From IMG/VR virus record IMGVR_UViG_2929656146_000003, positions 1 to 64,000 of that record: DNA of 64,000 nucleotides. One strand, written 5' to 3'. The notes under the pieces were generated by a model that did not search any database, was not told where the DNA came from, and saw only the letters and a program-made list of their open reading frames with translations. Made by a program: the position numbers and the translations under genes. This document shows, piece by piece, positions 24,513-50,679 of the stretch (the first letter of the stretch is position 1; each line of letters opens with the position of its first letter). The stretch comes from a virus. Taxonomy: Duplodnaviria; Caudoviricetes.

Positions 24513-25241
24513 TCAGTTGCCCCGCAAACGCGCGGCGTGCTGGTCCCAGGAGCTCTTGGGCTTCTCTGGGGCGGCCTGCCTCGGTGCGGCGGTCGGCCTG
24601 GCCTTCGGCTTGGCGGGCTCGGGGCGCGCGAACAGCTCGGGGTAGTCGGTCCTCAGCCGGTCGATCTCGCTGTCGAGACCGATCACGTCACCGTCGTCGT
24701 CCACGCTGAGGGAATCGGTGTCGAGGAGCTTGAGGACCCGGGACGGGCCACCGGCAACGCCGGCCTCCGCGAGTGCCGCACGCGCGGCCTGGTTGATGAT
24801 GCGGGGCTTCCACTGGCTTTCCGCCGCCTCGGTGGCCTCGCGGATCGCACGCTCGTGGTCGCCCTCGTTCTCGCGGCCCTTCGCTTCGAGCTGCTTGAGG
24901 GCGAGTCGGTTCCTCTTGGCCTCCTCGTTGGCCTTCCTCAACGCCGCGACGGTGCGAGCGTGTTCGGCCTGCAGCTTCTCCAGCACCGGGTCGGCCTTGC
25001 TGTCCGCGGGCGGCCTCGGCTTCGGCTTCTCGCCGTCGTCCTGGCTGCCGTCGTCAGAGGTCTCGTCGTCCGCGGTCTCGTCGGCGGCGGTGTCGTCGTC
25101 GACTTCGATGTCCGTGCCGTTGTCTTCCTCGGAGCCGCCGGCCACGTTGTAGATCGGGCGGCCGTCGGCGCGGTGGCCGAGCAGGGTCCACGGGGGCAGG
25201 CTGATCGCGGTGCTGGAGGGTCCGATCACCGGAGCGTCCAC
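24513..25241 (-). CDS. Capsid scaffolding protein (start uncertain)
   Basis: Acidic N-region, coiled coil 'KANEEAKRNRLAL', 'YPELF'; upstream of capsid. Confidence 0.82.
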   Translation of the reverse strand: MDAPVIGPSSTAISLPPWTLLGHRADGRPIYNVAGGSEEDNGTDIEVDDDTAADETADDETSDDGSQDDGEKPKPRPPADSKADPVLEKLQAEHARTVAALRKANEEAKRNRLALKQLEAKGRENEGDHERAIREATEAAESQWKPRIINQAARAALAEAGVAGGPSRVLKLLDTDSLSVDDDGDVIGLDSEIDRLRTDYPELFARPEPAKPKARPTAAPRQAAPEKPKSSWDQHAARLRGN

Positions 25242-25312
25242 AGGGTGTCTCCCATCACGGGGGTTTACATGACTGACTGCGACCGTAGCCGCGGGCCCGG
25301 GACGGACTGTGA

Positions 25313-27884: not shown

Positions 27885-27948
27885 CGCGTCCCCTCCTCAG
27901 GTCGCGATCACCGTAGGTCCGGGGTCCGGGCGGGCTGTGAACGGCCGG

Positions 27949-38188: not shown

Positions 38189-38281
38189 GAGGGGCTCCTC
38201 TCGGTACTGGGATGGGGTGGTCTGAGTGCTCGCGGCGGCCGCCCAACCGCAGGGGTTGGGCGTCACCGGCAGGCCGTCAGA

Positions 38282-39649
38282 TCAGCCGTCCGTCCCGGTG
38301 ATCGGCCGGACGTTGTCGGACCCGAGCGCGGCAAGCTCGGGGTGCTCTCGCTCGATCTCCAGCCGGCGAGCGTTCGCGAACTGGCGGGACTTGGGGAGCT
38401 TCGCGGCCTTCAGGGCGGCCACCATCTCGGACTCCAGGGGGCGCCTTCCAAGGTCGGCGTAGAGCGCCTTGATGGCGTCTCGTGCGGCGTCCCGTGGCGC
38501 CGCCGTGGGGCGCCCTGAAGTGGTGGGCCGGGGCGCCTTCGTGGCGCTACGAGGGCGGGCGACGGGGCGCTTCTGGGGCGCTTCAGAAGCGGCATTGGTG
38601 GCGCTCTGACGGGCGCTGTCATAGCGCTCTCGGGGCGCCATAGCGTCGACTGCCGTGGCGCTCTGAGGGCGCTTCACAAGGTCGACGGTGGCGTCATGCG
38701 TGGCGCTCCCGTGGCGCCCCGAAGCCGCTGCCTGAGGCGCTTCCGTGGCGGGTGCGAGGGCGCTTTCGATGGCGCCCCGAATCACTGGTTGGGGCGCCAC
38801 GATGCCGGACGCCATGGCGCTTTCGGGGCGCTCTACGTAGATAGGCGGGAGCGCTTCCGTGGCGCCTTCATGGCAGTCGACGGTGGCGTCCTGAGGCGCC
38901 TCGATGGCGGCCTGTCCGTAGGCCTCGTGCAGCGCTGCGCCGATCGGCTTGCCAAGCTTGGCGAGCCTGATGGCGAGCTGCTCGGGCTTGGTGGCCTGCC
39001 TCTTCCATCCGCGTCCGTAGCGGATCCTGAGCGTGGTGCGGAAGACCTTCGACTCCTGTTCCATCAGGATCACTTCGGTGTAGGAGCGGATGTTCCACAT
39101 GCGCATGCGGCGCCACACGCGGTAGGTCGGCCACGGGGCGAGGAACCAGCGGGGCAGCGGCGGGTTCTCGTAGTAGGCGCCGCTGCTGATCTTCGCCATC
39201 CGGCCCACGGCGTGCCTGCCAGCCTCGACGATGAGGACGAACAGGATGGGCATGGTGGCGTGCATGCCTACGGCGATTTCGTCACCCCAGGAAGCGGCGA
39301 CGTTGAAGGCGATCGTGGCGCCGGTGAGACCCCAGGCCGCGTAGCGCAGTAGGGGGAACGGCATGCGGAAGAAGGTGAGGAGGAGGTCAAGGGCAAGGAG
39401 GGTACCGATGCCGACGTCGACGCCGAGGGGGAAGACGCGGGCGAAGTCGCCGAAGTCCTTCTTGATGGCGAGCCTGACAACGGCGTTGTAGGAGCCTGCG
39501 AAGCCGATGCCAGCGATGGAGATGGCGCCGGCAACGATGGCGCCGATGGTGGCTTTCTGCGGCTTGGTGAGCTCGCGCTTGGTGCGGGCGTCGAGGCCCA
39601 GCGCGGGAGTGGTGGTGAGCTCAGTCTCGGTGTTTGCGATCGGGTTCAC
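38282..39649 (-). CDS. DUF2637 membrane protein (Spd/transfer-accessory type)
   Basis: 'IGFAGSYNAV', 'FPLGVD', 'TIAFN', 'GMHATMP', 'RWFLAPWPTYRVWRRM'; directly upstream of TraB. Confidence 0.82.
   Translation of the reverse strand: MNPIANTETELTTTPALGLDARTKRELTKPQKATIGAIVAGAISIAGIGFAGSYNAVVRLAIKKDFGDFARVFPLGVDVGIGTLLALDLLLTFFRMPFPLLRYAAWGLTGATIAFNVAASWGDEIAVGMHATMPILFVLIVEAGRHAVGRMAKISSGAYYENPPLPRWFLAPWPTYRVWRRMRMWNIRSYTEVILMEQESKVFRTTLRIRYGRGWKRQATKPEQLAIRLAKLGKPIGAALHEAYGQAAIEAPQDATVDCHEGATEALPPIYVERPESAMASGIVAPQPVIRGAIESALAPATEAPQAAASGRHGSATHDATVDLVKRPQSATAVDAMAPRERYDSARQSATNAASEAPQKRPVARPRSATKAPRPTTSGRPTAAPRDAARDAIKALYADLGRRPLESEMVAALKAAKLPKSRQFANARRLEIEREHPELAALGSDNVRPITGTDG
38440..38900 (+). 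repeat. Dense polar GGCGCY hexamer array inside the DUF2637 gene (candidate clt/TraB recognition locus)
   Basis: About 22 GGCGCY copies in about 460 bp by hand count, in all three codon phases. Confidence 0.7.
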
Positions 39650-39668
39650 GTCTGGGCTCCTTCCTGGG

Positions 39669-40004
39669 TTAGCGAGTGGTCGGTGAGTGGTTGGGGGCGA
39701 TGTGGTGGGCGCTGGTGGTGAGTACCCACAGTGCTGCGGTGGCGAGCGCGCGGAGTGTGGCGGCGAGGGTAAGGAGGCTGCCGGCCGCGATCGCGCGGAG
39801 GGTGTGGTGGTGGCCGGCGATGAGCTGCGGAAGGTCGAGGCGCAGGGCGGTGCCCGCGAGGGCGAGCACCGCGTACTGGGCGAGGATCGCGGTGGTGACT
39901 GCGGCGAGGGCGGGGGCGGGGAGCAGGGTGGCGGCGAGCACCGCGAGCGCTAGGGCGGTGGTGGTGAGGGCCTGCTGCTCGGCCGGGGCGGCGGTGCGGG
40001 CCAC
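39669..40004 (-). CDS. Small hydrophobic membrane protein (Spd-like context)
   Basis: Ala/Leu-rich TM segments; GAGAGGAG RBS. Confidence 0.65.
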   Translation of the reverse strand: MARTAAPAEQQALTTTALALAVLAATLLPAPALAAVTTAILAQYAVLALAGTALRLDLPQLIAGHHHTLRAIAAGSLLTLAATLRALATAALWVLTTSAHHIAPNHSPTTR

Positions 40005-40050
40005 GACGGTCTCCTCTCTGGGTTAGGCGGGTGGGTCCGGGGCTCGGCTC

Positions 40051-40281
40051 CTACTTCGGGGTGACGACGAGGTCGAGCACGTTCCCGGGCACCTTCAGCA
40101 GGGTGGCGAGGTCGGCAGCGAGCGAGCCCAGGGTGTGCGGGATGTCGACCCTGGTGACGATCTGCTTCTGGTTGATGCCGGTGCCTGCGCTGTCGCGCAG
40201 CTCGGTGATGAGGGTGACGGCGTAGTTGCCCGGCGGAACCTGGGTACCGGCTCCGTTGCGGCTGATCGACATGGTGGTCAT
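40051..40281 (-). CDS. Hypothetical protein (76 aa)
   Basis: AAAGGA RBS; co-oriented in the transfer arm. Confidence 0.65.
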   Translation of the reverse strand: MTTMSISRNGAGTQVPPGNYAVTLITELRDSAGTGINQKQIVTRVDIPHTLGSLAADLATLLKVPGNVLDLVVTPK

Positions 40282-40296
40282 GGCGTGGTCGTCCTT

Positions 40297-40830
40297 TCAG
40301 GTGGTGGCTGCGGTGCGCAGCAGGTTGTGGATGTCGGCCTTCGTGCGGCCGGGCTCGTCGTTCCAGGTGTCGACCGGGATCGGGTGGCCGGCGCGGCCGA
40401 GGGCGTTGCCGATGAGGAGGCGGGCTTGCCAGGCGGTGGCGGGGGTGCCGTATCCGTGGGCGAGGACCTGGAGGTGGGCGCCGAGGACGCACACGGCGCC
40501 GGTGGCGTCCCAGAGGCCGCCCTGGGTCCAGCCGTGCTGGGTGATGTAGCGGTCCATCAGCTGCAGGTGCTCTCTCGCGGTGACTTGGATGGTGGGAGCC
40601 GGGCGACGGAGGATCCGGTCGGTGAGGGTGCGGGCGGGTTGGGGGTGGCCGGCCCACCAGGGCGGGGTGGTGCTGCCGTGGGCCGGGATGTGCACCGTTG
40701 GGGCGGTGCGCAGCGGGGTGGGTCCGCCGGTGGGGATGACGGTTTTGAGGTAGGCCTCGATCTCGGCGACCAGGAGGGGGCCGTACAGGTCCACGTCCAG
40801 GTCGAGCGGGGTGGTGATGGTGGCGGGCAT
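40297..40830 (-). CDS. DUF6197-like protein
   Basis: 'HGWTQGGLWDATGAVCVLGA...WNDEPGRTKADI'. Confidence 0.7.
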   Translation of the reverse strand: MPATITTPLDLDVDLYGPLLVAEIEAYLKTVIPTGGPTPLRTAPTVHIPAHGSTTPPWWAGHPQPARTLTDRILRRPAPTIQVTAREHLQLMDRYITQHGWTQGGLWDATGAVCVLGAHLQVLAHGYGTPATAWQARLLIGNALGRAGHPIPVDTWNDEPGRTKADIHNLLRTAATT

Positions 40831-41137
40831 CTTGGGGGTTCTCCTCTCCTGGTCAGCGAGCGTGCGATGGGTGCGGTCCGTGCGAGTGATGCGATACCGT
40901 GCACGGCCCGCCGGGAGGTCAGGCCCGGTGCCGGCCGCATCGCGACAGTGCGGCCGAGCCGTAGCCGACGCCGGAGGTGACGACGCACAGGCAGGCATCG
41001 CAGACGGCTCCGGGGATGGGCAGGCTCTCGGTGGCGTGCGCGACCCGCATCGGCTGGCCGCAGCAGGTGAGGTTGTCGTAGGCCTCGGGGGTGAGTGATG
41101 CGCCGTCGGCGAGCTGCGTGAGTGGGGTGGCTATGGC

Positions 41138-41311
41138 TCAGTCCTCCAGGTCGGTGGGGTACTCGCCGAGGCGGGCGGTCTCGGCGAGCGAGCGGTGTTC
41201 TTGTGCCTGTGCGAGGCACTCGGTCCGGCCGGGGCCGTCGGCCTGGGCGGCGAGAAGCTTCAGGGCCGCGGCTTCCCTCAGGTGGTGGGCCACTGCGGCG
41301 GCGCGTTTCAT
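41138..41311 (-). CDS. Small hypothetical protein (57 aa), not in the ORF track
   Basis: MKRAAAVAHHLREAAAL...EYPTDLED after a purine-rich leader. Confidence 0.55.
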   Translation of the reverse strand: MKRAAAVAHHLREAAALKLLAAQADGPGRTECLAQAQEHRSLAETARLGEYPTDLED

Positions 41312-41367
41312 GTCGATGTCCCCCTGCTCCGGTGCGGTGTGTGTGAGGGTGCGGGCCTTGGCGTGGG

Positions 41368-41640
41368 CTAGAGCGCGGCGCGCAGGTCTGCGAGGGCCTG
41401 GTCGGCGGCCCGCTGGCTGGGGGTCAGGATGCTGCGCGCGGCGCCGTGGATCGTGGCGGGCAGCAGGGCGCGGATGTCGCGCTCGTTGACGCCGGCTGCG
41501 ATCGCGGCCTTGTAGGCCTCGCAGGCGTCGGCGACGGACTGGCTGTAGGTGGCGTCGGCCGCGGCGTCGGCCCGGTAGGCGGACTCGCTGCGGGCGACAG
41601 CGTCGACAACGGTTCGGATGAGGTGCTGCTGGCTGGCCAT
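41368..41640 (-). CDS. Hypothetical protein
   Basis: AGGAGG RBS. Confidence 0.7.
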   Translation of the reverse strand: MASQQHLIRTVVDAVARSESAYRADAAADATYSQSVADACEAYKAAIAAGVNERDIRALLPATIHGAARSILTPSQRAADQALADLRAAL

Positions 41641-41695
41641 GGTTCCTCCTGGGAGTGAGGCGGCGGGCTGGGCGCGGGGCTCTCCTGGTCGGCGT

Positions 41696-42154
41696 TCAGG
41701 CCGCGCGGAGCAGCTCGCGGGTGGCCGGGTACATGTCGAGCTGCGCGGCCAGGTAGCGCTGGGCGACGTCGTCCTGGATGCCGGCGCTGGCGGCTGCGAC
41801 GCGGTCGTGGAGGTCGGAGCTGAACCGGGCGGAGAGCTCCTCGTCGTGGCGGTGCTGGTCGGCGCCGGTCCACTGCGGGGTGTCGGTGAGCGGGCCGTGA
41901 GCGGACCAGATCTGCCAGGACGGGGTCTGGCCGGCCATCAGCTGGCCCGTGTAGACGCCCCACTTGGCTTTGCGGTCGAACTGGTAGTCGCCGTGGACGA
42001 GGCCCCCGCTTCCGGAGCTTCCGATCGGGGCGATTGTGTAGTAGGTGACGCCGAGCTTGGCGACGGTGTTGACCCACTGGTCGTGTTCGCGGCGGGCCTC
42101 GGCGGCGTAGCGCTGGCTGCGGGCACTGTCGATGGCGCGGTTGAGGAGCCTCAT
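41696..42154 (-). CDS. Hypothetical protein
   Basis: ATG at 42154 after AAGAAGGG; high GC3. Confidence 0.7.
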   Translation of the reverse strand: MRLLNRAIDSARSQRYAAEARREHDQWVNTVAKLGVTYYTIAPIGSSGSGGLVHGDYQFDRKAKWGVYTGQLMAGQTPSWQIWSAHGPLTDTPQWTGADQHRHDEELSARFSSDLHDRVAAASAGIQDDVAQRYLAAQLDMYPATRELLRAA

Positions 42155-42249
42155 ACTGAGGTTGCCCTTCTTGCTCGTTGGCGGGTGGTGGGGTGTCCGG
42201 GGCGGCCGGCTGTGCTTGGCGGCTGATGGCGGCCGCCCCGGGGGCGGGG

Positions 42250-42483
42250 CTAGGAAACGTGCTCGGAGGCGTCGGACTTGGCTTGGGCGACTGCGGCATA
42301 CCAGTTGGCCTGGTCGTTGAACAGACGCTTGCCGGGATCGCTGGCGTTGTTCCAAGTGCAGGTGCAGAACGCCTCGATGGTGTTGCCGTCGGGGCAGGCT
42401 GTCTCGGTGACCACCGCGGTGTGCTGACCGTTGCGGAACGCGGCGATGTCACCGCGGCCTGGGTAGATTTCGTGGGGAAGCAC
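42250..42483 (-). CDS. Hypothetical protein with CxC...H motif
   Basis: AAGGAGG RBS. Confidence 0.65.
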   Translation of the reverse strand: MLPHEIYPGRGDIAAFRNGQHTAVVTETACPDGNTIEAFCTCTWNNASDPGKRLFNDQANWYAAVAQAKSDASEHVS

Positions 42484-42526
42484 TGCTTTGGCCTCCTTGC
42501 GGCCAGGTCTGGGCTGGGTTGCGTGG

Positions 42527-42826
42527 TCAGGACCAGTGCCAGACCGAGCGGGTGCGGGCCGCCTCTGCGGCGGCTGCGCCGAGTTCGTAGCAGGCCTGCT
42601 GCCATGTCGGTGAGGCGAACGGGGTGAGGGCCTTGAACGCGGCGCCCATGCGCGCGGCCTGGTCGGGCTGGATGTCGAAGGTGTCTCCGCTGCCCCGGTT
42701 GAACAGTGGGCTGATGGCGGCCCAGTCGCTTCGTGGGGCGATCTGCTTCAGGTACTCGCCGAGTTCGGTGTGCGCACTGTAGGAGCGGGTCCCGCCGGTC
42801 TGGTTGTGGTCCCAGGACCAGCCCAT
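42527..42826 (-). CDS. Hypothetical protein
   Basis: Coupled ORF, 'MGWSW...WHWS'. Confidence 0.7.
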   Translation of the reverse strand: MGWSWDHNQTGGTRSYSAHTELGEYLKQIAPRSDWAAISPLFNRGSGDTFDIQPDQAARMGAAFKALTPFASPTWQQACYELGAAAAEAARTRSVWHWS

Positions 42827-43029
42827 CAGTTCTTCCGAAGCTGTTCGGGCCGGTAGGTGCGCTCTCCGAGTACCGCCTCGACGAGTCGGTTGTCGATGCC
42901 CTTCACAGAGACCAGCTGGCCGACGTCATCGGTCTGGACCTGGACGACGGTGCCGGTGCGGCCGAGGGTCTTGGGGTTCTGCCCGTCGGTGTTGATCACG
43001 GTGACGCTGTCACCCTCACGAACGGCCAT
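42826..43029 (-). CDS. Small SH3/KOW-like beta-barrel protein
   Basis: 'VREGDSVTV...GRTGTVVQV...YRPEQL'. Confidence 0.6.
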   Translation of the reverse strand: MAVREGDSVTVINTDGQNPKTLGRTGTVVQVQTDDVGQLVSVKGIDNRLVEAVLGERTYRPEQLRKN

Positions 43030-43220
43030 CAGGCGGCAGCCCGGTAGACGTCGACGTAGCCAGCGGGCAGGTGGAGCTCCTGCGCGGCGAACGCGAGGAC
43101 CTCCGCGTCGGTGACCGCACCGTACGTGTGGACGGGCTTGAAGACCGGGCCGGCGAACTCGGGGTGCCGGACGATCAGGCGGGCGGGCTCGCCCAGGATC
43201 CGGTCGGTGAAGTTCTTCAT
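43029..43220 (-). CDS. Hypothetical protein (63 aa)
   Basis: AAGGGA RBS; coupled. Confidence 0.6.
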   Translation of the reverse strand: MKNFTDRILGEPARLIVRHPEFAGPVFKPVHTYGAVTDAEVLAFAAQELHLPAGYVDVYRAAA

Positions 43221-43235
43221 GATGTCCCTTCAGAA

Positions 43236-43382
43236 TCAGACGTAGAGGGCGTAGGCGATGCCGCTGAGGATGAGGATCACGAGGATCACTACGGGGATGA
43301 GAGCAGCCAGGCGGTGGGCCTCCTCCCTTGCGCTGTCCTGAGGGGTGATGAGGTATCGGAGGTAGCTGCCATCGCCGTCCAT
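43236..43382 (-). CDS. Small single-pass membrane protein (48 aa), not in the ORF track
   Basis: MDGDGSYLRY...LIPVVILVILILSGIAYALYV; AAAGG RBS. Confidence 0.6.
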   Translation of the reverse strand: MDGDGSYLRYLITPQDSAREEAHRLAALIPVVILVILILSGIAYALYV

Positions 43383-43393
43383 CAGGTTGCCTT

Positions 43394-43585
43394 TCACGCG
43401 GCGGCCGGGTAGCGGATGGTGTCCGCGCCGAGCCGGTAGAGGAGGGTCGTGGCCAGAGCCTCGGCCTCGTGCTCGGCAGCGTCGATGACGGCGTCGCGTT
43501 CGGCGGGGGTGGCGTCGGGGCGCAGTCGGCCGAGGGCGATCTGCATGCTGGCGATGCCGTCGCGCTGCTCCTGCAAGGTGGCCAT
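43394..43585 (-). CDS. Hypothetical protein (63 aa)
   Basis: AAAGGA RBS then MATLQEQ. Confidence 0.6.
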   Translation of the reverse strand: MATLQEQRDGIASMQIALGRLRPDATPAERDAVIDAAEHEAEALATTLLYRLGADTIRYPAAA

Positions 43586-43598
43586 CAGACGGTTCCTT

Positions 43599-43838
43599 TC
43601 AGAGTCGGGCGGCGGCCTCACGGACCGCCTGGACGGTGTCGTACGGGGAGTCCTCCAGCGCGAAGACCTCCGCGCTGGGCAGTGCGGCGAGCATGCGGGC
43701 CGCGTGGGTGACGCATCCGTTCGCGTTGATGTACGGGTTCCACTGGACGACATGGGCCACGACCGGGCCGTCACACGGGGGTTGTGCCTGCTTGCTGTGG
43801 TTCGCGGCGGACTGGGCGGCGTCGCAGTAGGCGCTCAC
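43599..43838 (-). CDS. Hypothetical Cys/His protein
   Basis: Coupled ORF. Confidence 0.55.
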   Translation of the reverse strand: MSAYCDAAQSAANHSKQAQPPCDGPVVAHVVQWNPYINANGCVTHAARMLAALPSAEVFALEDSPYDTVQAVREAAARL

Positions 43839-43980
43839 TCGGTGTCCTCGTCGAACGGTTCGGTGAGGATGTCGATGTACGGGGTTCCGTCTGCGGCGGT
43901 CATGAGCGACAGGAGCTCGATCAGGCCGGCGCTGTTGGGGTCGTCGATGTCGACGGGGACCGGGTCACCGTTGCCGGCCA

Positions 43981-44160
43981 TCAGACGATGTCCAGCGGGG
44001 TGCGGACCTGGGTGGCTTCGAGGTCGGTGATCTCCTGGACCTCCGCCCGGAACTGCTGGGCCAGGGTCTCGCGCAGGCCCTTGTCCTTGGCGGCGAGGAA
44101 CTGCCTTGCCGTGGTCCGGGCCTTCGTTTCGAGGGCGGCGATCTGCTCGTCGAGGGTCAC
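43981..44160 (-). CDS. Small coiled-coil protein
   Basis: AGGAGG RBS + GTG; TLDEQIAALETK... Confidence 0.6.
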   Translation of the reverse strand: MTLDEQIAALETKARTTARQFLAAKDKGLRETLAQQFRAEVQEITDLEATQVRTPLDIV

Positions 44161-44478
44161 TGCTTGTCCTCCTTCTTGATCGGGTCGATGGGCTTCCGCG
44201 GCCGCGGGATCCTGGGGATGACCGGCCGGTTGTCCCAGTCGGTCACTTCGTGGGCTGCGGGGGGAGGGGCGGGAGGGGCTGGTGGCCGTAGCCGCCGTTC
44301 GTGGAGTGGTCGCCGGCGCCGTCGGCGAAGGCACGGTCGTAGTGCATGGGGTCCTCCTTGCTGGGGGTGATGGTCCGCTGGCCGATCGGGGGAGCCCCGA
44401 ACGCCGGCGAGGGGCGGGACGGCTGCGGGCCGGGTTCAATGGGGTCGAGGCCGGGCCAGCCGTTGTGCGGGTCAGGCA

Positions 44479-44706
44479 TCAGGCGGCGTCCGCCAGGTCG
44501 TGCATCGCCTGGATCTTGGCCGCGACGACCGCGCGGGGGATGCGGATGGCACCGCCGCGACCGGCCTGGCCGCGGGACCACTGCTTGCCGTGGCGGATCG
44601 CTTCGAGCTCTCCGTCCTGCACCCAGCGGTAGATGGTGGGGATGCTGACCCGGAGCGCTTTCGCGACCTCCTTGACGGTCAGGACCGGTGGACTCTCGGG
44701 CAGCAT
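44479..44706 (-). CDS. Excisionase-like HTH (HTH_17) DNA-binding protein, first gene of the leftward arm
   Basis: 'LTVKEVAKALRVSIPTIYRWVQDGELEAIR...IRIP'; AAGGAGG RBS. Confidence 0.88.
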   Translation of the reverse strand: MLPESPPVLTVKEVAKALRVSIPTIYRWVQDGELEAIRHGKQWSRGQAGRGGAIRIPRAVVAAKIQAMHDLADAA

Positions 44707-44751
44707 GCTGAAGCCCTCCTTCCGAGGGGTTCCTCGTTGGCTGATGGACAC

Positions 44752-44791
44752 AACTATATAGGTTCTCTTGAGAAGCTGCAATGTTCTCAGG
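44752..44791 (-). promoter_or_regulatory. Leftward promoter/operator (TTGCAG-N17-TATAGT), copy 1 of a 40-bp element
   Basis: 34/40 identical to the reverse-oriented 47421..47460; AT-rich; GAGAA...TTCTC dyad. Confidence 0.8.
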
Positions 44792-44878
44792 CTGTGTTCG
44801 AGCTACCAGGGCCGCAACCTTGTGCCTTAACTTGAAAGGCGACAAGGTTTCCCGCTCTGTGCCAAAAGGAGGCGACTG

Positions 44879-45421
44879 ATGGCTGACGAAGGCCAGCTGG
44901 ACGCGTCGGCTGCCTACCTCCGAGCACCCACCAGCGGACACCGCGATGCATGGAGCGAGCTCGCACGCGCATCTGGGCGGCAGGGTGGTCAACGGCTGAT
45001 TGAAGTGGGTGAAGTCGAGGCGCCAGAAGGCGTCGCCTGCGCGCTCCGTTTGCCCGTAGGGGCGCTCGTCTCGATCCGGCGCAGGGTGATCACGCTTGAT
45101 GGCCGTGCAGTGGAAGTCGCAAGTTCCTACTACCCGGCCGACATAGCGGCGGGCACTCCGCTGGCGAGACCCGCACGCATTCGAGGCGGGGCTGTGGCGG
45201 TGTTGGCAGCCCTCGGGCACCAACCAGTGGTTGCTCACGAGGAAGTGGCGGCCAGGCCAGTGTCAGCAGCTGAGCTGGAGATCCTTGACGCGAACCCGTC
45301 TGACTGGGTCCTCGATCTCCTGCGAATTGCTCTGGATGTGACTGGGCGCCCTGTCGAGGTCTCTCTGATGACCATGCTGGCCGTTGGCCGGAAGCTCCAC
45401 TACACCGTCGAGATCGGCTGA
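44879..45421 (+). CDS. Stand-alone UTRA-domain protein (no HTH)
   Basis: 'VSIRRRVITLDGRAVEVASSYYP...RIRGG...GRPVEV'; paralog of the downstream GntR C-domain. Confidence 0.85.
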   Translation: MADEGQLDASAAYLRAPTSGHRDAWSELARASGRQGGQRLIEVGEVEAPEGVACALRLPVGALVSIRRRVITLDGRAVEVASSYYPADIAAGTPLARPARIRGGAVAVLAALGHQPVVAHEEVAARPVSAAELEILDANPSDWVLDLLRIALDVTGRPVEVSLMTMLAVGRKLHYTVEIG

Positions 45422-45425
45422 GATC

Positions 45426-46229
45426 ATGAAAGAACACGACATCAGTACCACCAGTGAGGCACCGGACAAGCCGACTCTTGAGCAGGAAAAGGGCGCCTGG
45501 CCGCAACACGAACTCCTGGCGAGCTACCTGCGCGACGGCATCCTGTCCGGCGACTTCCCTGCCGGCAGCCTGCTGCCGTCGACGAGGCTCCTGCGAGAGA
45601 AGTTCGGGGTTGCACCCCAGACCATCAAGCACGCAAATGACCAACTGGCCAGCGAGGGCCTTGTCCGCAGCCACCGAGGCAAGGGCATCATCGTGCTTGA
45701 TCGCCGCCCACAGACCGTGGTGCCTGCGGCGACCAAAAGGCCGGCAAACCCGGGTGACCCGTATCGCTGGATCACCGAAGCATCGAAGAGTGGGCTGCAG
45801 GGAGCGAGTGTCCTTCTCGACGTAGACGAGGTCGTTCCGCCCAAAGACGTTGCGCGGGCGCTCGGACTTGGGGCGAGTGGCGTGGCCCTTCGGCGCGAGC
45901 AAGTCCTCACGCTCGACGGCGAGCCGGCCGAATACGTGAGGGCGTACTACCCTGTGGATATCGCGCGAGGCACTGAGATCGCCGTTCGCAAGCGGATCAG
46001 GGGCGGGACGCCGCGGGTCCTTCAGGACCTTGGGTATCCGCCGCTCAGGTGTGTGGACACTGTTTCGGCGCGTGTTCCGACGCCGGACGAGGTCAAGGCC
46101 CTGGGTACGCCCACCAAGGTTCCAGTCCTCAGGACACTGCGCGTGGTTCACAGCGTTGACGACAGAGTGGTGGAGGTCGCTGTGATGGCGAAGGCAGGCC
46201 ACCTCTACGAGCTGCAGTACGACTTCTAG
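45426..46229 (+). CDS. GntR/HutC-family repressor (KorSA/TraR-like)
   Basis: wHTH 'LRDGILSGDFPAGSLLPSTRLLREKFGVAPQTIKHA...GKG' plus UTRA domain. Confidence 0.9.
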   Translation: MKEHDISTTSEAPDKPTLEQEKGAWPQHELLASYLRDGILSGDFPAGSLLPSTRLLREKFGVAPQTIKHANDQLASEGLVRSHRGKGIIVLDRRPQTVVPAATKRPANPGDPYRWITEASKSGLQGASVLLDVDEVVPPKDVARALGLGASGVALRREQVLTLDGEPAEYVRAYYPVDIARGTEIAVRKRIRGGTPRVLQDLGYPPLRCVDTVSARVPTPDEVKALGTPTKVPVLRTLRVVHSVDDRVVEVAVMAKAGHLYELQYDF

Positions 46230-46252
46230 CCCCTGCGTCGGGAGCGATCAAG

Positions 46253-46286
46253 CTACGGCCCTGCCTTAGTCATGGCGGGGCCGTAG
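46253..46286. terminator. Bidirectional terminator between GntR and MazF
   Basis: CTACGGCCCTGCC-N8-GGCGGGGCCGTAG. Confidence 0.75.
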
Positions 46287-46292
46287 TAGTTG

Positions 46293-46679
46293 CTAGCCGA
46301 GTTCTCCGAGGAGCCCGAATGAGCGGGCCAGGACTGTGTTCAGCTCGGCCATCTGGGGAGGGCGCAGGCGACCAGCGAAGCGTTCGAGGCGGGACTGGTC
46401 GATGGTCATCACCTGAAATCCCAGGATGTCACCGGCATCGGGGAGGGGGTCACCAGCCTGAAGGGTCACCGTGATGGGGGAGGTTTCGCGAACCCTGGTT
46501 GTCATCGCCGCGACGGTCACCGTAGGCATACGGCTATTGAACGAGTCCAGCGAGATCACGACGGCGGGCCGATGGCCGGCCTGCTCTGAACCGCGTGCTG
46601 GGTCGAAGTCCACCCAGTAGATGTCTCCCCGCTGAGGGGACGGCGGCCGCCTGAGAGGCGGAGGGCTCGGTACGGGCAC
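46293..46679 (-). CDS. mazF: MazF/PemK family endoribonuclease toxin
   Basis: 'RGDIYWVDFDPARGSEQAGHRPAVVIS...VAAMTT...QVMTIDQSRL'. Confidence 0.92.
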   Translation of the reverse strand: MPVPSPPPLRRPPSPQRGDIYWVDFDPARGSEQAGHRPAVVISLDSFNSRMPTVTVAAMTTRVRETSPITVTLQAGDPLPDAGDILGFQVMTIDQSRLERFAGRLRPPQMAELNTVLARSFGLLGELG

Positions 46680-46688
46680 TCGGACAGC

Positions 46689-46943
46689 TTAGTACTCGGG
46701 CCACTCCGCCGAACCCGCATCCCATGCGGCCGCAGCCCACTCTGCCGACTCGTCGGCGAATACTGCGAACGCATCTCCCAAGCCATCATCGGGGGACGGC
46801 GTGGCGGTGGCGAGTTCCACCTGTGGAGAGCTTTGCAGGGAGAGGGACAGCCAGGGGAAGCACTCCGCGAGGCTTGCTGACGGTGCGCCGACAAGTGGGT
46901 AAACCACCTGGGCGGAGTTGCTCTGAGAAGGTGCGGTGCTCAT
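46689..46943 (-). CDS. Putative antitoxin (acidic Trp-rich C-terminus, no obvious DNA-binding domain)
   Basis: Directly upstream of MazF; 'FADESAEWAAAAWDAGSAEWPEY'. Confidence 0.65.
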   Translation of the reverse strand: MSTAPSQSNSAQVVYPLVGAPSASLAECFPWLSLSLQSSPQVELATATPSPDDGLGDAFAVFADESAEWAAAAWDAGSAEWPEY

Positions 46944-47290
46944 GGCTGTTCCCCCTGTGCCTCGTCGTAGATCTCGGCCGCCGACTCCAGGATCTTGATG
47001 AGCTCCTGGATACGGTCTCGTGTCAGGACGAATCTGCCAAGAGGTTTCACGGGCAGCTTATGCCCGGATTCGGCCAACCGCTCGACGATCTCTTCGTCCG
47101 AGCCGAACAGTAGGGGTGGCTCAAGGATCCCCATGGTCAGGTAGATGGAGTCTGGCCGGCCTGACGCGTTTGGAACGCCGAGCGCAACGGCGAACTGGTT
47201 GGTCGGTTGAGCAGGGCCGGCGGGGTCTTCCCACACCAGTCGGAACTTCGCGGTGTGTGCCGTGGTGCTCGTGATGGGGGGCTTGGTCAC
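46940..47290 (-). CDS. DUF3467-like protein coupled to the antitoxin (possible chaperone)
   Basis: 'PTNQFAV...IYLTMG..EPP...RFVLTRDRIQELIKIL...IYDEAQG'; ATGA overlap. Confidence 0.6.
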   Translation of the reverse strand: MTKPPITSTTAHTAKFRLVWEDPAGPAQPTNQFAVALGVPNASGRPDSIYLTMGILEPPLLFGSDEEIVERLAESGHKLPVKPLGRFVLTRDRIQELIKILESAAEIYDEAQGEQP

Positions 47291-47420
47291 ACGGACAGTC
47301 TGCCACCGTCAACTGATCAGCATGCAGGCGCCAGCCAGGTTCCGCTGCGACTGGCCACCCTAAGGGGGGAACTGCCACGTATTGGCTGCGCCTGCGATTG
47401 CAGTTCAGGGCGCGCGCAGT

Positions 47421-47460
47421 CCCGAGAACATTGAAACTTCTCAATAGAACCTATAAGGTT
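47421..47460 (+). promoter_or_regulatory. Rightward promoter/operator (TTGAAA-N17-TAAGGT), copy 2 of the 40-bp element
   Basis: Inverted near-copy of 44752..44791; followed by a hairpin at 47483..47507. Confidence 0.8.
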
Positions 47461-47617
47461 TGATGTGCTGCACAACGTAAGACGGCCCCGCAGTAGGTGC
47501 GGGGCCGCGACTTCACCGCGCGTGCAAGTGGCCTGGTAACCGGAACACGCGCAGATCGGAGATCTCCATCATGGCATTCGCCGTCAAGAGCGTCGACGTC
47601 ACCCCGGCGGTGACCCG

Positions 47618-47812
47618 ATGATCGCCGTCACCGTCGCCCGCCCCACCGAGAACACCGCCGTCGGCCTCATGCCGGTCCGTGAGCTCGGCAACCTCGGCGC
47701 CTACCACCTCGCCCGGTTCGCCCTCAAGACCGGGGACATGTACGGCGCCCGCCTGTTCACCAAGAGCTACCTGCGCGCCCTGGCCGGCGGCAAGGTGGGG
47801 GAGTCGCTGTGA
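47618..47812 (+). CDS. Hypothetical protein
   Basis: Coupled small ORF. Confidence 0.6.
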   Translation: MIAVTVARPTENTAVGLMPVRELGNLGAYHLARFALKTGDMYGARLFTKSYLRALAGGKVGESL

Positions 47813-48018
47813 TCACCATGACCGCCCCGCGGATCACCGCCGGCCTCGTCCCCGTCGAGTTCGGCAACCCCGGGCCCGCGATGCACCCCGTGCAGATCGA
47901 CGCCGTCACCCTGATCGTCGGCTACGACCCGCGGGTCCTCGACGCCGACCTCGTTACCACGATCCTGCAGTCCGTGCACGGCGCCGACCTCGTCATCGTC
48001 GAGGAGGTGCCTGAGTGA
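47809..48018 (+). CDS. Hypothetical protein
   Basis: GTGA coupling, GGGGAG RBS. Confidence 0.6.
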   Translation: MITMTAPRITAGLVPVEFGNPGPAMHPVQIDAVTLIVGYDPRVLDADLVTTILQSVHGADLVIVEEVPE

Positions 48019-48212
48019 AGCTCCTCCAGTCCCTCCACAAGGACCAGCCTGGCGCGGCCGCCCAGATCGCCGCGACCGCGGACGACGCCCGCACGCTCGG
48101 CTTCGAGAACGTCGCGACGCACTACGAGCCCCAGACAGGCCACCACACCGTCACGGGTGACCTGCCCGCGGCGACGGCGCAGCGCACCGTCGACCGGATC
48201 CTCGGCCGCTGA
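48015..48212 (+). CDS. Hypothetical protein
   Basis: GTGA coupling, GAGGAGG RBS. Confidence 0.6.
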   Translation: MKLLQSLHKDQPGAAAQIAATADDARTLGFENVATHYEPQTGHHTVTGDLPAATAQRTVDRILGR

Positions 48213-48325
48213 GGCCTGCTTGGGCCGCCCCGTGATGGGGCGGCCCCTCGTTCACCCTCACCTTCGTGTCCAGCTGGAGAAGCCGTGTTCCTGCGTACCC
48301 CTGCCGCCGTACTGGCGGTGCGCTG

Positions 48326-49303
48326 ATGGGGATCAAGCTGGTCGAAGAGGTCATGGACTGGTGTCCGGATGATGTGACGCCAGCGCAGCGCTGGTGTTTG
48401 ACGGTGTTGGCGCGGGATGCGAACGACGCGACCCGGGAGACCTTTCACGGCCCGGAGCATCCCGAGATCCTGCGCCGGGTGCGGTTGTCGGCGAAGCGGT
48501 GGGAGGCGGTGCGGTCGTCGTTGTTGAAGCGGGGGTTGATCGAGCCGGTGTCAGGTGGGTATCGGGGGCGTGCGGGGCGGTATCGGATCGCGTGCTTGTT
48601 CGCTCCGTGTGTGATTGGGGACGGTCGAAAGACCCCTGGTTTTCGGGGGGCTTTCGGTGGCTACCAGCCGGTAAGGGGGCAGAAAGACCCTCAGGTTCCG
48701 GGGGTCAATCACTCTGAAAGCCCCCCGGAACCTGAGGGTCTTTCGTCGGAAAGCCCCCTGGAACCCGAGGGGCAATCGGCCGAAAGACCCCCGGAAACCA
48801 GGGGTCCTACTCCTCCTTCTTTCTCCTCCCAACCACCCTCCTCCCGACCCGCGCCTCCCGAGCCGCCCACCGGACCCGAGCCGGACGACGGACGGGAGGG
48901 CGGGGGGACCGCCTCACGGCGGCAGGACAACCCCGCCTACGCCGCCCTCGCCCGCATCGCAGCCCGCCACCACCAACTCGCCCTCGGCGAAAACGAGATC
49001 GCCACCCTCGCCCCACTCGTCGCCCCCTGGCTCCAGCGGACCACCGAGGCCCGCATGGAGCACGCGATCACCACGGGCATGCCCGCTACCGTCACCAACC
49101 CTGTCGGGTTCCTGCGCCGCCGGCTCGTCGAGAAGCTCCCTCCGCCGCTCGCCGCCGTCCCCGACGAAGAACGCTGCGGTCGCCCGAACTGCGACCCGAT
49201 CACCCACATGGTCACCCTCCCCGGAGGCGACCAAGCGCACTGCGCCACCTGCCACCCCACCGGGCGCGCCCTCGCCCGCCGAGCCCAAGGAACCGCCGCA
49301 TGA
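48326..49303 (+). CDS. Phage replication initiator (lambda O-like organisation)
   Basis: N-terminal wHTH-like region, internal iterons, 'NPVGFLRRRL', coupled to DnaB. Confidence 0.8.
   Translation: MGIKLVEEVMDWCPDDVTPAQRWCLTVLARDANDATRETFHGPEHPEILRRVRLSAKRWEAVRSSLLKRGLIEPVSGGYRGRAGRYRIACLFAPCVIGDGRKTPGFRGAFGGYQPVRGQKDPQVPGVNHSESPPEPEGLSSESPLEPEGQSAERPPETRGPTPPSFSSQPPSSRPAPPEPPTGPEPDDGREGGGTASRRQDNPAYAALARIAARHHQLALGENEIATLAPLVAPWLQRTTEARMEHAITTGMPATVTNPVGFLRRRLVEKLPPPLAAVPDEERCGRPNCDPITHMVTLPGGDQAHCATCHPTGRALARRAQGTAA
48627..48810. repeat. Five quasi-palindromic 29-bp iterons, probable replication origin
   Basis: GAAAG(A/C)CCC...GGG units start at 48627, 48682, 48716, 48749, 48782. Confidence 0.85.
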
Positions 49304-50679
49304 CCGACCACGACGACGACCAGGCCCTCGGCCCCGTCCCGCCGCAGGACCTCCACGCCGAACGCGCCGTCCTCGGCGCCATGCACCTCGCCTCCACCGC
49401 GGTTGCCGATGCCGTCGGCACCGGCCTGCGCGGCAGCGAGTTCTACCGCCCCGCCCACGAAAAGATCTACGACGCGATCGTCGCCCTGTACGCCGCCGGC
49501 GACCCTGCCGACCCGATCACCGTGTCCCGGCAGCTGGCCGTCACCGGCGACCTGGACAGGTGCGGTGGGCCCGGCTACCTGCACACGCTCGTCAAGGCTG
49601 CTCCGGCGGCGGCGAACGCCGAGTACTACGCGGCGATCGTCCGCGAGAAGGCCCGACTGCGTACTCTCGCGGTGGCGTTGAACCGCGGCTCGCTGATGAT
49701 CGCCCAGGCCGAGGGCGATCCGGCCGAGGTTGTCGAGGCGATCCAGGCGGAGATCATTGCCGCAGCCGGGAACCCGGACGGGCCGGGCGCGTCCTCGGTC
49801 GGCCTGGCCGTCGTGCGCGACACCCTGGGAGCTGCTCTCGATGCGATCGAGGCCGTCAACGAGGGCTCTACGCCGATCGGCGTCCCGTGGGGCTTCAGGG
49901 ACCTGGACGCGCTGACCGGTGGCATGCACCCCGGCCAGATGATCGTCATTGCAGGGCGGCCGGGCATGGGCAAGTCCACCGGAGGTATGGACATCGCCCG
50001 GTCCGCCGCGATCGGGCACGGCCTCGGCACGGCGTTCTTCTCGCTGGAGATGTCCCGTGTCGAGATCATGAAGCGGTTGATCTGCGCCGAGGGATGCGTC
50101 CCCCTGCACCACATGCAGGTCAAGGCTGGCATGACGGATGACGACTGGACGCGGGTTGCGAAGGTCATGCCGCGGATCTCGGACGCTCCGCTGTACCTCG
50201 ACGACTCGCCGGACCTGACGATGACGTCGATCCGGACGAAGGCCCGCCAGATCGCCGCTGAGACCGAGTTGAGGCTCATCGTGATCGACTACATGCAGCT
50301 GCTGCGGTCCGGGGGCGGGCACCGCTACGAGTCCCGGCAGCAGGAGGTCTCGGACCTGTCGAGGTCGATCAAGTTGCTGGCGAAGGAGTTGGAGATCCCG
50401 GTGATCGCCCTGTCGCAGCTGAACCGCGGCCCGGAGCAGCGCACCGACAAAAAGCCGATGGCGGCTGACCTGCGGGAGTCCGGGGCGATCGAGCAGGACG
50501 CCGACTTGATCATCCTGTTGCACCGTGAGGACGCCTACGACAAGGAGTCGGCGCGGGCGGGGGAGGCGGACTGGATCGTGGCGAAGAACCGGTCGGGGCC
50601 GACGTCGACGATCACGGTCGCCTTTCAGGGGCACTATGCCCGTTTCGTCGACATGGCTGCGGATCTTCGGGCAGCCTGA
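49300..50679 (+). CDS. dnaB: Replicative DNA helicase DnaB
   Basis: 'PPQDLHAERAVLG', 'AGRPGMGKST', 'FSLEM', 'IDYMQL', 'LSQLNR', 'DLRESGAIEQDAD', 'KNRSGPT'. Confidence 0.97.
   Translation: MTDHDDDQALGPVPPQDLHAERAVLGAMHLASTAVADAVGTGLRGSEFYRPAHEKIYDAIVALYAAGDPADPITVSRQLAVTGDLDRCGGPGYLHTLVKAAPAAANAEYYAAIVREKARLRTLAVALNRGSLMIAQAEGDPAEVVEAIQAEIIAAAGNPDGPGASSVGLAVVRDTLGAALDAIEAVNEGSTPIGVPWGFRDLDALTGGMHPGQMIVIAGRPGMGKSTGGMDIARSAAIGHGLGTAFFSLEMSRVEIMKRLICAEGCVPLHHMQVKAGMTDDDWTRVAKVMPRISDAPLYLDDSPDLTMTSIRTKARQIAAETELRLIVIDYMQLLRSGGGHRYESRQQEVSDLSRSIKLLAKELEIPVIALSQLNRGPEQRTDKKPMAADLRESGAIEQDADLIILLHREDAYDKESARAGEADWIVAKNRSGPTSTITVAFQGHYARFVDMAADLRAA

What the first reader, a model, noticed from the sequence alone, without database searches (positions are those of the whole stretch)
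44752..47460. Twin 40-bp outward-facing promoter/operators: one GntR switch may control both transfer and replication
Seen: the reverse complement of 44752..44791 (CCTGAGAACATTGCAGCTTCTCAAGAGAACCTATATAGTT) matches 47421..47460 (CCCGAGAACATTGAAACTTCTCAATAGAACCTATAAGGTT) at 34/40. Each has -35/N17/-10 hexamers, an almost fully conserved spacer and a GAGAA-N9-TTCTC dyad around the -35. One points into the xis-traB arm, the other into rep-dnaB, with GntR, UTRA and the MazF module between them. Inference: this is a lambda PL/PR-like immunity region in which a plasmid-type GntR repressor stands in for CI; no Xre/CI-type repressor is recognisable in this window.
Basis: partly seen in the sequence, partly recalled or inferred. 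Interest (0 to 1): 0.8.

Follow-up and report, generated by a model that had tools for sequence, protein, structure and literature searches.

The report
Paired promoter-operators flanking a prophage GntR
Two near-identical, outward-facing promoter-like sites bracket a GntR-type regulator inside a Streptomyces-like prophage and probably let that one regulator shut off two gene arms at once, as in known conjugative elements, but a classical phage repressor lies just outside the window, so it is not the phage's only switch.

Summary
The two 40-mers match at 34/40 in inverted orientation, are the only copies in the 9.1-Mb genome, and are AT-rich islands in 69% G+C DNA. Each has a TTGnnn-17-TAnnnT promoter frame and three GAGAA-type half-sites.

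Related elements keep the same layout: an UTRA-only gene coupled to a GntR+UTRA (HutC-type) gene, with a promoter-embedded dyad upstream pointing away. In the prophage-type relatives a second copy lies downstream, in front of a replication arm. The dyad follows the UTRA-GntR pair whatever gene lies beyond it, and its centre changes together with the GntR recognition helix. The GntR, perhaps with its UTRA-only partner, is therefore the likeliest binder; this is inferred, not shown.

The lambda-immunity reading is only partly supported:
- A divergent Xre repressor/Cro-like pair beside a serine integrase lies 14-17 kb beyond the window in what seems the same ~80-kb prophage. It recurs in the closest syntenic relative.
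- "xis" is an unpartnered HTH_17 protein.
- "rep" has no family match.

One GntR operator repeated before transfer and replication genes is already described for pMEA300 KorA and SLP1 ImpA. This is a new variant of a known kind.

The parts
44752..44791 (-). P_L / O_L: leftward promoter-like site with embedded operator. -35 at 44781-44776, -10 at 44758-44753, three GAGAA-type half-sites.
   Evidence: PWM score 54.4 bits. Aligns in register with the equivalent site of 20 related loci.
47421..47460 (+). P_R / O_R: rightward twin. -35 at 47431-47436, -10 at 47454-47459.
   Evidence: PWM score 50.8 bits. An equivalent site lies in front of the replication arm in G005 (45.0 bits) and just after the GntR stop in 9 relatives.
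44816..44849 (+). O_L2: weaker third site. A 34-nt palindrome with 8-nt perfect outer arms, between P_L and the UTRA start. It overlaps a possible rightward promoter for the UTRA-GntR operon (TTGTGC-17-CAAGGT).
   Evidence: Sequence. PWM 18.3 bits at 44816 (null maximum 14). Nearly the same sequence at the same place in L105.
44479..44706 (-).
   Evidence: Pfam PF12728, E 2.9e-13. Homologue in the same divergent position in 22 of 95 loci.
44879..45421 (+). UTRA-only protein, 180 aa, with no DNA-binding domain.
   Evidence: Pfam PF07702, E 6.8e-20. Directly upstream of the GntR gene in 83 of 95 loci. Stop and start are 0-8 nt apart or overlapping.
45426..46229 (+). GntR+UTRA (HutC-type) regulator, 267 aa: the candidate repressor.
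   Evidence: Pfam PF00392 E 2e-13 and PF07702 E 8.1e-18. Distant matches to solved HutC members.
46293..47290 (-). Variable cargo slot. Here: PemK/MazF toxin (46293-46679), an 84-aa ORF (46689-46943) and a 116-aa ORF (46940-47290).
   Evidence: Pfam PF02452, E 4.3e-27; no family for the other two. Other cargo occupies the same slot in G005 and L105.
47483..47507 (+). 10-bp G+C hairpin in the predicted P_R leader.
   Evidence: Fold. The whole leader gives z -1.6, which is not exceptional.
47618..50679 (+). Right arm: three small ORFs, a 345-aa ORF (48266-49303) and DnaB helicase (49300-50679).
   Evidence: DnaB_C E 3.5e-94. No family for the others. Homologues follow P_R in G005 and L059.
36218..44439 (-). 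Rest of the left arm: closely packed minus-strand ORFs, DUF6197, DUF2637 (38282-39649), FtsK/TraB-like protein (36218-38266).
   Evidence: TraB-like 58% and DUF2637 54% identical in G005.

Best explanation
P_L (44752-44791, minus strand) and P_R (47421-47460, plus strand) are two housekeeping-sigma-type promoters. Each is buried in a ~36-bp operator built from three GAGAA-like half-sites: one just upstream of the -35, and a 5+2+5 dyad filling the spacer.

The HutC-type GntR encoded between them binds these sites and occludes the -35 and -10. It probably acts with the translationally coupled UTRA-only paralogue. This silences two operons:
- the leftward one (HTH_17 protein, about 15 small ORFs, DUF2637, TraB-like translocase);
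- the rightward one (small ORFs, a 345-aa protein, DnaB).

A weaker palindrome (44816-44849) over the likely UTRA-GntR promoter would give autoregulation. Release would come from an unknown small ligand of the UTRA domain(s), or from dilution on entry into a new cell.

The module is one regulatory node of an ~80-kb tailed prophage. That prophage also carries a separate Xre repressor/Cro-like pair beside its serine integrase, so the GntR node is a second checkpoint and not a replacement for CI.

Shown: the repeat, its uniqueness, the gene content and the cross-element conservation. Inferred: promoter activity, who binds, the direction of regulation, and the ligand.
For: Uniqueness and composition.

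Conserved register. In 20 loci the site upstream of UTRA-GntR aligns without gaps, with GAGAA, TTGCnn, a T-rich/A-rich dyad in a 17-nt spacer, and TAC(A/G)GT.

PWM scan. A PWM built from those sites hits almost only two places in 91 loci of ~8.7 kb:
- upstream of UTRA;
- just after the GntR stop (the null of 400 kb of reversed sequence on both strands gave a maximum of 14 bits).

The site follows the regulator pair, not its neighbour. 37 of 70 loci without the HTH_17 neighbour, none used for training, carry a >=20-bit site at the same position. The first gene beyond it is HTH_17 in 19 loci, an HATPase_c_2 protein in 15 (one representative Pfam-scanned), and others elsewhere.

Second, downstream copies, not used for training:
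- 9 relatives;
- G005, 45.0 bits, 3 kb past the GntR stop and directly before homologues of the 345-aa protein and DnaB.

Direct left/right similarity versus control:
- window 30/34 vs 22
- L106 30/34 vs 22
- L025 25 vs 22
- L097 25 vs 21
- L111 24 vs 21
- L107 23 vs 20
- L112 23 vs 21
- L115 25 vs 23

Helix/operator co-variation. All 10 loci whose recognition helix carries QTI(K/R) have a CAAGA or CAGGA dyad centre. The ~50 loci with (S/T)(V/I)QKA have TTTCGCGAA-like centres. The 4 with a ...(S/T)ML helix end have TTTAGAA/TTTAGGA centres.

Autoregulation. The third, weaker site lies over the likely UTRA-GntR promoter. In L097 the equivalent site is a clear inverted copy of P_L.

Precedent. 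KorA of pMEA300 and ImpA of SLP1 are GntR/Kor proteins that bind a 14-16-bp inverted repeat both at their own promoter and before transfer or replication genes (review PMC2440964, passages seen).

The Xre pair's own intergenic repeat motif is absent from the twin sites.
Against: There are no binding data, no mapped transcription start and no RNA data.

The consensus promoter scanner called neither copy.

The PWM was trained on the left-arm sites of 20 related loci plus both window copies, so their high scores are circular. Only the 37 non-HTH_17 sites and the downstream copies are independent.

The helix/operator co-variation amounts to two or three clade splits, so phylogeny alone could produce it.

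In most relatives the left and right sites resemble their orthologues more than each other (26-27/38 within an element against 33-35/38 between elements). The 34/40 twin here and in L106 may therefore reflect recent homogenisation and not a functional need.

Downstream copies were not found above control in L032, L059, L070, L109, L110 and L114; L105 is cut off too early to tell.

The dyad does not look like the GT-n-TA-n-AC core recalled for HutC operators, and the recognition helix lacks the usual Arg.

A CI-like repressor exists in the same element and cannot be excluded as a binder.
Confidence: 0.55

Rival explanations
1. The sites are operators, but for another protein of the element. One candidate is the HTH_17 protein made first from P_L, acting as a Cro-like feedback repressor. 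The other is the Xre-type repressor next to the integrase.
For: HTH_17 is a DNA-binding protein encoded immediately downstream of P_L in all prophage-type loci, and its identity also tracks operator class. A CI-like repressor with a PHROG 'transcriptional repressor' match lies in the same element and is conserved with the module in G005.
Against: 37 of 70 loci that lack an HTH_17 neighbour keep the site next to UTRA-GntR. The Xre/Cro intergenic region carries its own repeated motif, which is not found at the twin sites. The twin core is not found near the Xre pair or anywhere else in the genome.
Confidence: 0.2
2. They are simply two copies of one strong promoter with no dedicated repressor. 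The shared spacer would reflect a recent duplication or gene conversion, or the needs of a particular sigma factor.
For: The window's pair (32/38) is more alike than most left/right pairs in relatives (21-27/38). The -35 and -10 are the best-conserved columns.
Against: The spacer dyad and the upstream GAGAA are conserved across elements that differ elsewhere. In the non-prophage loci the whole site is a ~30-bp palindrome, including the hexamers. A promoter does not need that symmetry; a dimeric binder does.
Confidence: 0.12
3. The 40-mers are terminal inverted repeats of a mobile cassette, or sites for a DNA invertase.
For: They form an inverted pair bracketing 2.6 kb that includes variable cargo.
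Against: No transposase or recombinase lies between them. No flanking direct repeat is visible. The left site is conserved next to UTRA-GntR even where no right site exists. The distance to the right site varies from about 20 nt to 3 kb with the cargo.
Confidence: 0.03

Closest known systems
KorA of pMEA300 (Amycolatopsis methanolica AICE)
   Same: A Kor-type regulator (GntR family, as the review describes AICE Kor proteins) on a mobile element. A 14-bp inverted repeat in the korA-traA intergenic region recurs directly upstream of a replication gene, so one regulator addresses transfer and replication (review PMC2440964, passages).
   Different: Here the host element is a tailed prophage with virion genes. 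The repeated unit is a whole 40-bp promoter. The regulator is preceded by a coupled UTRA-only paralogue. Sequence relatedness to KorA was not tested, and the primary papers are not held.
imp locus of SLP1 (ImpA/ImpC, Streptomyces coelicolor)
   Same: It is described as a master regulator of replication, integration and transfer. ImpA binds a 16-bp inverted repeat at its own promoter and at a second promoter before the transfer genes, and two co-encoded proteins act together (PMC2440964).
   Different: The review says ImpC has an HTH motif, whereas the partner here is UTRA-only with no DNA-binding domain. The operator sequences could not be compared (papers not held).
KorSA of pSAM2 and its homologue SCO3932
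   Same: A GntR/HutC repressor of an integrative element that binds its own promoter and one further promoter and keeps the element silent (PMC8584621, passages; PMC2440964).
   Different: KorSA acts through the activator Pra and has no site at the transfer gene. The SCO3932 motif reported there is not a TTC/GAA dyad. No pra-like gene was identified here.
Lambda immunity region (cI between P_L and P_R; recalled)
   Same: The repressor gene is flanked by two outward-facing promoters with related multi-part operators, and a weaker site lies at the repressor's own promoter.
   Different: The repressor is GntR/HutC, not an HTH_3 protein. A separate Xre repressor/Cro-like pair lies beside the integrase about 32 kb away. 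No evidence shows that this node sets immunity.
HutC-subfamily regulators DasR and NagR/YvoA
   Same: The same domain pair, GntR wHTH plus UTRA. Distant sequence matches to their solved structures (DasR E 3.6e-05, YvoA 7.9e-05).
   Different: Those are chromosomal sugar regulators with known ligands. Identity here is low, the operator differs, and the ligand is unknown.

Membership tests
GntR family, HutC subfamily | N-terminal GntR-type winged helix-turn-helix | tested here: met
   PF00392, E 2e-13, 50.2 bits against a cut-off of 27.
GntR family, HutC subfamily | C-terminal UTRA effector domain | tested here: met
   PF07702, E 8.1e-18. Full-length alignment to 2ra5, DasR and YvoA.
GntR family, HutC subfamily | Dimer binding to a palindromic operator | not testable with these tools
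Kor/Imp (kil-kor) regulators of actinomycete integrative conjugative elements | GntR-family repressor carried by the mobile element | tested here: met
Kor/Imp (kil-kor) regulators of actinomycete integrative conjugative elements | The same inverted-repeat operator at its own promoter region and before transfer or replication genes | tested here: met
   At sequence level only: 34/40 pair plus a weaker third site. The right copy precedes DnaB-arm homologues in G005 as well.
Kor/Imp (kil-kor) regulators of actinomycete integrative conjugative elements | Host element is an AICE or plasmid: integrase, Rep, TraB, no virion genes | tested here: not met
   Terminase, portal, major head, tape measure and minor tail genes lie at 12167-29508. 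The terminase is syntenic with the module in two provirus records.
Kor/Imp (kil-kor) regulators of actinomycete integrative conjugative elements | Sequence homology to KorA, ImpA or KorSA, and a similar operator | not tested
   Their sequences were not at hand, and the primary papers are not held.
Lambda-type immunity region | Repressor gene flanked by two outward promoters with related operators | tested here: met
   Geometry only.
Lambda-type immunity region | CI/Xre-type repressor | tested here: not met
   The flanked regulator is GntR. No PF01381 match falls in the window.
Lambda-type immunity region | It is the element's master lysogeny switch | tested here: inconclusive
   A separate Xre repressor/Cro-like pair beside the serine integrase lies outside the window and is conserved with the module in G005. 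Which node sets immunity is unknown.
Housekeeping-sigma promoter | -35 and -10 hexamers with 16-18 nt spacing | tested here: inconclusive
   TTGnnn-17-TAnnnT is present and conserved in register, but the TTGACA/TATAAT scanner found 0 sites.
Housekeeping-sigma promoter | Mapped transcription start | not testable with these tools
   No RNA holder is listed for this stretch.

The most novel reading that the evidence does not exclude
A translationally coupled UTRA-only / GntR-UTRA pair forms a ligand-sensing heteromeric repressor that sits on a promoter built into a ~30-bp palindrome. This module is widespread in Streptomycetaceae. One lineage of ~80-kb temperate phages duplicated the promoter-operator to either side of the regulator. 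That created a second, metabolite-responsive lysis-lysogeny checkpoint, independent of the CI/Cro switch, which gates both the DnaB replication arm and the arm leading to the TraB-like translocase and the virion genes. The space between the regulator and the right promoter became a landing pad for toxin-antitoxin and other cargo.
Probability: 0.3. Interest if true: 0.7.

Novelty: new variant of a known kind. Interest (0 to 1): 0.5.

Why it matters
If the GntR binds both sites, this prophage family would have a two-node control circuit: an Xre-type switch at the integrase, plus a small-molecule-sensing HutC-type switch over replication and the left arm. That would tie prophage activity to host metabolism, which temperate actinophages are not known to do, and would show plasmid/AICE 'kor' logic reused inside a tailed phage.

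The conserved promoter-operator together with the UTRA-only partner gives a compact testable system: two proteins and three sites within 2.8 kb. It could also serve as a ligand-controlled expression tool in Streptomyces.

My searches of the held library found no description of such a module in actinophages. The library omits most subscription journals, and supplements were closed.

Tried and rejected
- blastn of 44400-47700 against the phage collection: no match.
- tblastn of the GntR: the best phage hit is Micromonospora phage pMLP1 at 46.8%. Neither its locus nor a Streptomyces canus plasmid locus shows a twin. The PWM finds nothing in L001 and one 32.2-bit site in L002.
- First similarity screens were swamped by G+C-rich coding matches at 24-26/32 or timed out. 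Restricting to AT-rich windows or to intergenic regions solved this.
- RNA evidence: no RNA holder is listed for the stretch.
Heterodimerisation rests only on gene coupling.
- Primary papers on ImpA and KorSA: not held, so known operator sequences could not be compared.
- PADLOC: no match for MazF, the 84-aa and 116-aa ORFs, UTRA-only or GntR.
- Transposon/invertase reading: rejected (see rivals).
- CI-operator reading: the palindromic motif of the Xre/Cro intergenic region has no match better than chance in the window (2 hits with 2 mismatches, 1.4 expected, neither near the twins).
- TraB-like protein as a conserved part of the family: not found in 5 records; present in G005.
The question was then answered from coordinates.
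Full report
**Observation**

The reverse complement of 44752-44791 matches 47421-47460 at 34 of 40 positions, and the similarity stops at the edges of the 40-mers. The repeat finder lists the pair independently as 40 nt, 85% complementary, with 2629 nt between the arms.

The pair is unique:
- A 32-nt degenerate pattern covering both copies has 2 matches in the window and none in 100 shuffles.
- The same pattern finds the same 2 matches in the whole 9.1-Mb genome.
- A 27-nt core at >=19/27 again finds only these two. Reversed queries gave a single 19/27 hit.

The arms are 40% and 37.5% G+C in a 69.2% G+C window.

Each copy has a TTGnnn hexamer, a 17-nt spacer and a TAnnnT hexamer:
- Left: TTGCAG / TATAGT on the minus strand.
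- Right: TTGAAA / TAAGGT on the plus strand.

The TTCTC is followed after two bases by another GAGAA (TAGAA on the right), so each copy has three half-sites.

One result goes against the promoter call. The TTGACA/TATAAT scanner reported no site in 44400-47800, because each copy has one hexamer with only three consensus matches. The fit is to the looser form that I recall for Streptomyces HrdB promoters; that consensus comes from memory, not from a call.

**Genes around the pair**

Between the copies:
- An UTRA-only protein (44879-45421).
- Five bases later, a GntR+UTRA protein (45426-46229).
- On the other strand, a PemK/MazF toxin (46293-46679) preceded by two ORFs without family matches.

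Left of P_L:
- A 75-aa HTH_17 protein (44479-44706) starts an 8.5-kb run of tightly packed minus-strand ORFs.
- The run ends with DUF2637 (38282-39649) and a 682-aa protein with a weak FtsK/SpoIIIE match (E 8.7e-07).
- After a 5.8-kb stretch of mixed orientation come terminase, portal, major head, tape-measure and minor-tail genes, all on the minus strand.

Right of P_R:
- Three small ORFs.
- A 345-aa ORF without any Pfam or PHROG match.
- A clear DnaB helicase.

'xis' and 'rep' are labels without support: contig C4 holds no tyrosine integrase with which an HTH_17 excisionase would pair.

**Relatives**

The GntR protein retrieved 80 loci from species-representative genomes and 11 from IMG/VR. 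It also led to phage pMLP1, a Streptomyces canus plasmid, and a 65%-identical stretch present three times in genome G005.

Mapping the window's proteins onto 95 loci gave two results:
- An UTRA-only ORF lies directly upstream of the GntR gene in 83 of 95. Its stop and the GntR start are 0-8 nt apart or overlapping.
- The divergent HTH_17 neighbour is present in 22 of 95. These include all 11 IMG/VR loci.

In 20 of these loci the stretch between HTH_17 and UTRA aligns with the window's left copy without gaps. The conserved features, in order, are:
- GAGAA;
- a TTGC-type -35;
- a 17-nt spacer holding a T-rich/A-rich dyad;
- a TAC(A/G)GT -10.

A weight matrix built from these sites plus the two window copies scores 54.4 and 50.8 bits on the window copies. 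It scores 18.3 bits on a third place, 44816-44849, a 34-nt palindrome between P_L and the UTRA start. The null, 400 kb of reversed sequence on both strands, peaked at 14 bits. The scores of the training sites are of course circular.

**Independent support from relatives**

First, 37 of 70 loci that lack the HTH_17 neighbour have a >=20-bit site at the same position upstream of UTRA-GntR.
- There the site is a ~30-bp palindrome whose outer arms include the two hexamers.
- The gene beyond it is an HATPase_c_2 protein in 15 loci and various others elsewhere.
- The site therefore travels with the UTRA-GntR pair, not with its neighbour.

Second, a downstream copy on the other strand is found in 9 prophage-type relatives just after the GntR stop. 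In G005 it scores 45.0 bits.
- In G005 it lies 3 kb past the stop, directly before homologues of the 345-aa protein (68%) and DnaB (41%).
- The G005 left arm carries homologues of HTH_17 (84%), DUF2637 (54%) and the TraB-like protein (58%).

Direct left-against-right comparison beats its control in the window, L106, L025, L097, L111, L107, L112 and L115, by 2 to 8 positions of 34. It does not in L100, L032, L059, L070, L109, L110 or L114. L105 is truncated.

The space between the GntR stop and the right copy holds different cargo in each element.

**How alike the two copies are**

The window's pair is unusually similar, at 32/38 over the core. In L106 the value is 31/38. In G005, L025, L107 and L111-L113 it is 21-27/38, whereas orthologous left sites or right sites of different elements share 32-35/38.

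The general rule is thus two related promoters, each conserved in its own right. The near-identity seen here may be recent homogenisation.

**Who binds**

The operator's centre changes with the GntR recognition helix:
- All 10 loci with a QTI(K/R) helix have a CAAGA or CAGGA centre.
- About 50 loci with (S/T)(V/I)QKA have TTTCGCGAA-like centres.
- The 4 with a distinct helix end have TTTAGAA/TTTAGGA centres.

These are only two or three clade splits, so this is weak evidence. With the co-localisation above it nonetheless favours the GntR.

A third, weaker site over the likely UTRA-GntR promoter fits autoregulation. In L097 the equivalent site is a clear inverted copy of P_L.

The protein is a distant HutC-subfamily member; its closest solved relatives are 2ra5, DasR and YvoA.

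Whether the UTRA-only protein pairs with it could not be tested. Gene coupling is the only hint.

**The CI question**

Beyond its right end, however, locus L116 holds:
- the genome's only large serine recombinase;
- a 166-aa Xre protein matching a PHROG 'transcriptional repressor' family;
- a divergent 70-aa Cro-like protein;
- then RecE, RecT, an exonuclease, RuvC and a replication initiator, all co-oriented and running into the window's right end.

In G005 the same integrase and Xre protein (53% identity each) lie on the same contig and in the same relative orientation as the GntR module. Divergent long/short HTH_3 pairs lie near a contig end in 2 of the 5 related virus records searched (G061, G063). 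The terminase lies on the P_L side of the module in 2 of those 5.

The Xre/Cro intergenic region has its own repeated palindromic motif, which is absent from the twin sites.

The element therefore seems to have two regulatory nodes. Nothing shows which one sets immunity.

**Comparison with what is known**

The review PMC2440964 (passages read) states three things:
- KorA of pMEA300 binds a 14-bp inverted repeat in the korA-traA region, and that repeat recurs upstream of a replication gene.
- ImpA of SLP1 binds a similar 16-bp repeat at its own promoter and at a promoter before the transfer genes. The imp locus, with two proteins, is described as a master regulator of replication, integration and transfer.
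- KorSA of pSAM2 represses its own promoter and pra.

PMC8584621 (passages) gives footprints for the KorSA homologue SCO3932.

The idea of one GntR switch over transfer and replication is therefore established for AICEs. What differs here:
- the tailed-phage host;
- a whole duplicated promoter as the repeated unit;
- the UTRA-only partner;
- coexistence with a CI/Cro-type pair.

Searches for GntR- or UTRA-type switches in actinophages, and for TraB in tailed Streptomyces prophages, found nothing relevant in the held library (search listings only). The primary J. Bacteriol. papers were not available, and supplements were closed.

**Verdict**

- The mechanism, a GntR-occluded pair of promoters, is plausible at about 0.55.
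- The 'CI replacement' claim is not supported.
- It is a new variant of the Kor/Imp theme, of moderate interest.

Noticed in passing
L116 (G000:C4:311000-330873), 14-17 kb beyond window position 64000: Serine integrase (L116 2935-4464), a 166-aa Xre repressor-like protein (4961-5461, minus strand) and a divergent 70-aa Cro-like protein (5661-5873). RecE, RecT, an exonuclease, RuvC and a replication initiator follow and run into the window. The intergenic region carries a repeated palindromic motif of its own.
   Followed up: partly
window 46293-47290; L118 9404-12365; L105 4775-5840: The gap between the GntR stop and the right promoter is a variable cargo slot. In the window it holds MazF plus two unknown ORFs. 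In G005 it holds about 3 kb with a 601-aa unknown protein and a GIY-YIG protein. In L105 it holds a 177-aa ORF without a family match and a DUF4429/SHOCT protein.
   Followed up: partly
L025-L104 (for example L039 2855-3259): The coupled UTRA-only/GntR pair with its palindromic promoter site is widespread outside prophages. In 15 loci the divergent neighbour belongs to one family of ~134-aa proteins; the representative scanned (L039) is an HATPase_c_2, anti-sigma-kinase-like protein. In L080, L087 and L093 the UTRA-only match lies after the GntR gene instead of before it.
   Followed up: partly
window 48620-48811: Three 33-bp direct repeats and several 27-36-nt inverted repeats lie inside the 345-aa ORF that precedes DnaB. 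They may be iterons or an origin, or they may encode an 11-residue protein repeat.
   Followed up: no
window 38506-38866: Four loosely repeated ~43-nt units rich in GGCGC lie in the 3' part of the DUF2637 gene, just upstream of the TraB-like gene. A cis-acting transfer locus is one possibility.
   Followed up: no
window 47466-47622: The predicted P_R leader (~150 nt) starts with a 10-bp G+C hairpin (47483-47507). It ends with a 16-codon mini-ORF (47572-47622) that overlaps the start of the first conserved ORF.
   Followed up: partly
window 4289-10094: An amidase_2 (endolysin-like) gene at 4289-5335 (minus strand) is separated from the tail genes by a plus-strand block of glycosyltransferase, methyltransferase and NAD-epimerase genes. 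This may be surface-modifying cargo of the prophage.
   Followed up: no
G005: C4:43640-45401, C2:851351-853112, C1:8492164-8493925: The related xis-to-GntR stretch occurs three times with the same score in genome G005. The integrase and Xre protein were found on C2 and C4 only.
   Followed up: no
window 36218-38266: The TraB/FtsK-like protein has a 58% homologue in G005. It was not found in pMLP1 or in four IMG/VR relatives that share the GntR module, so it is not a constant part of this phage family.
   Followed up: partly
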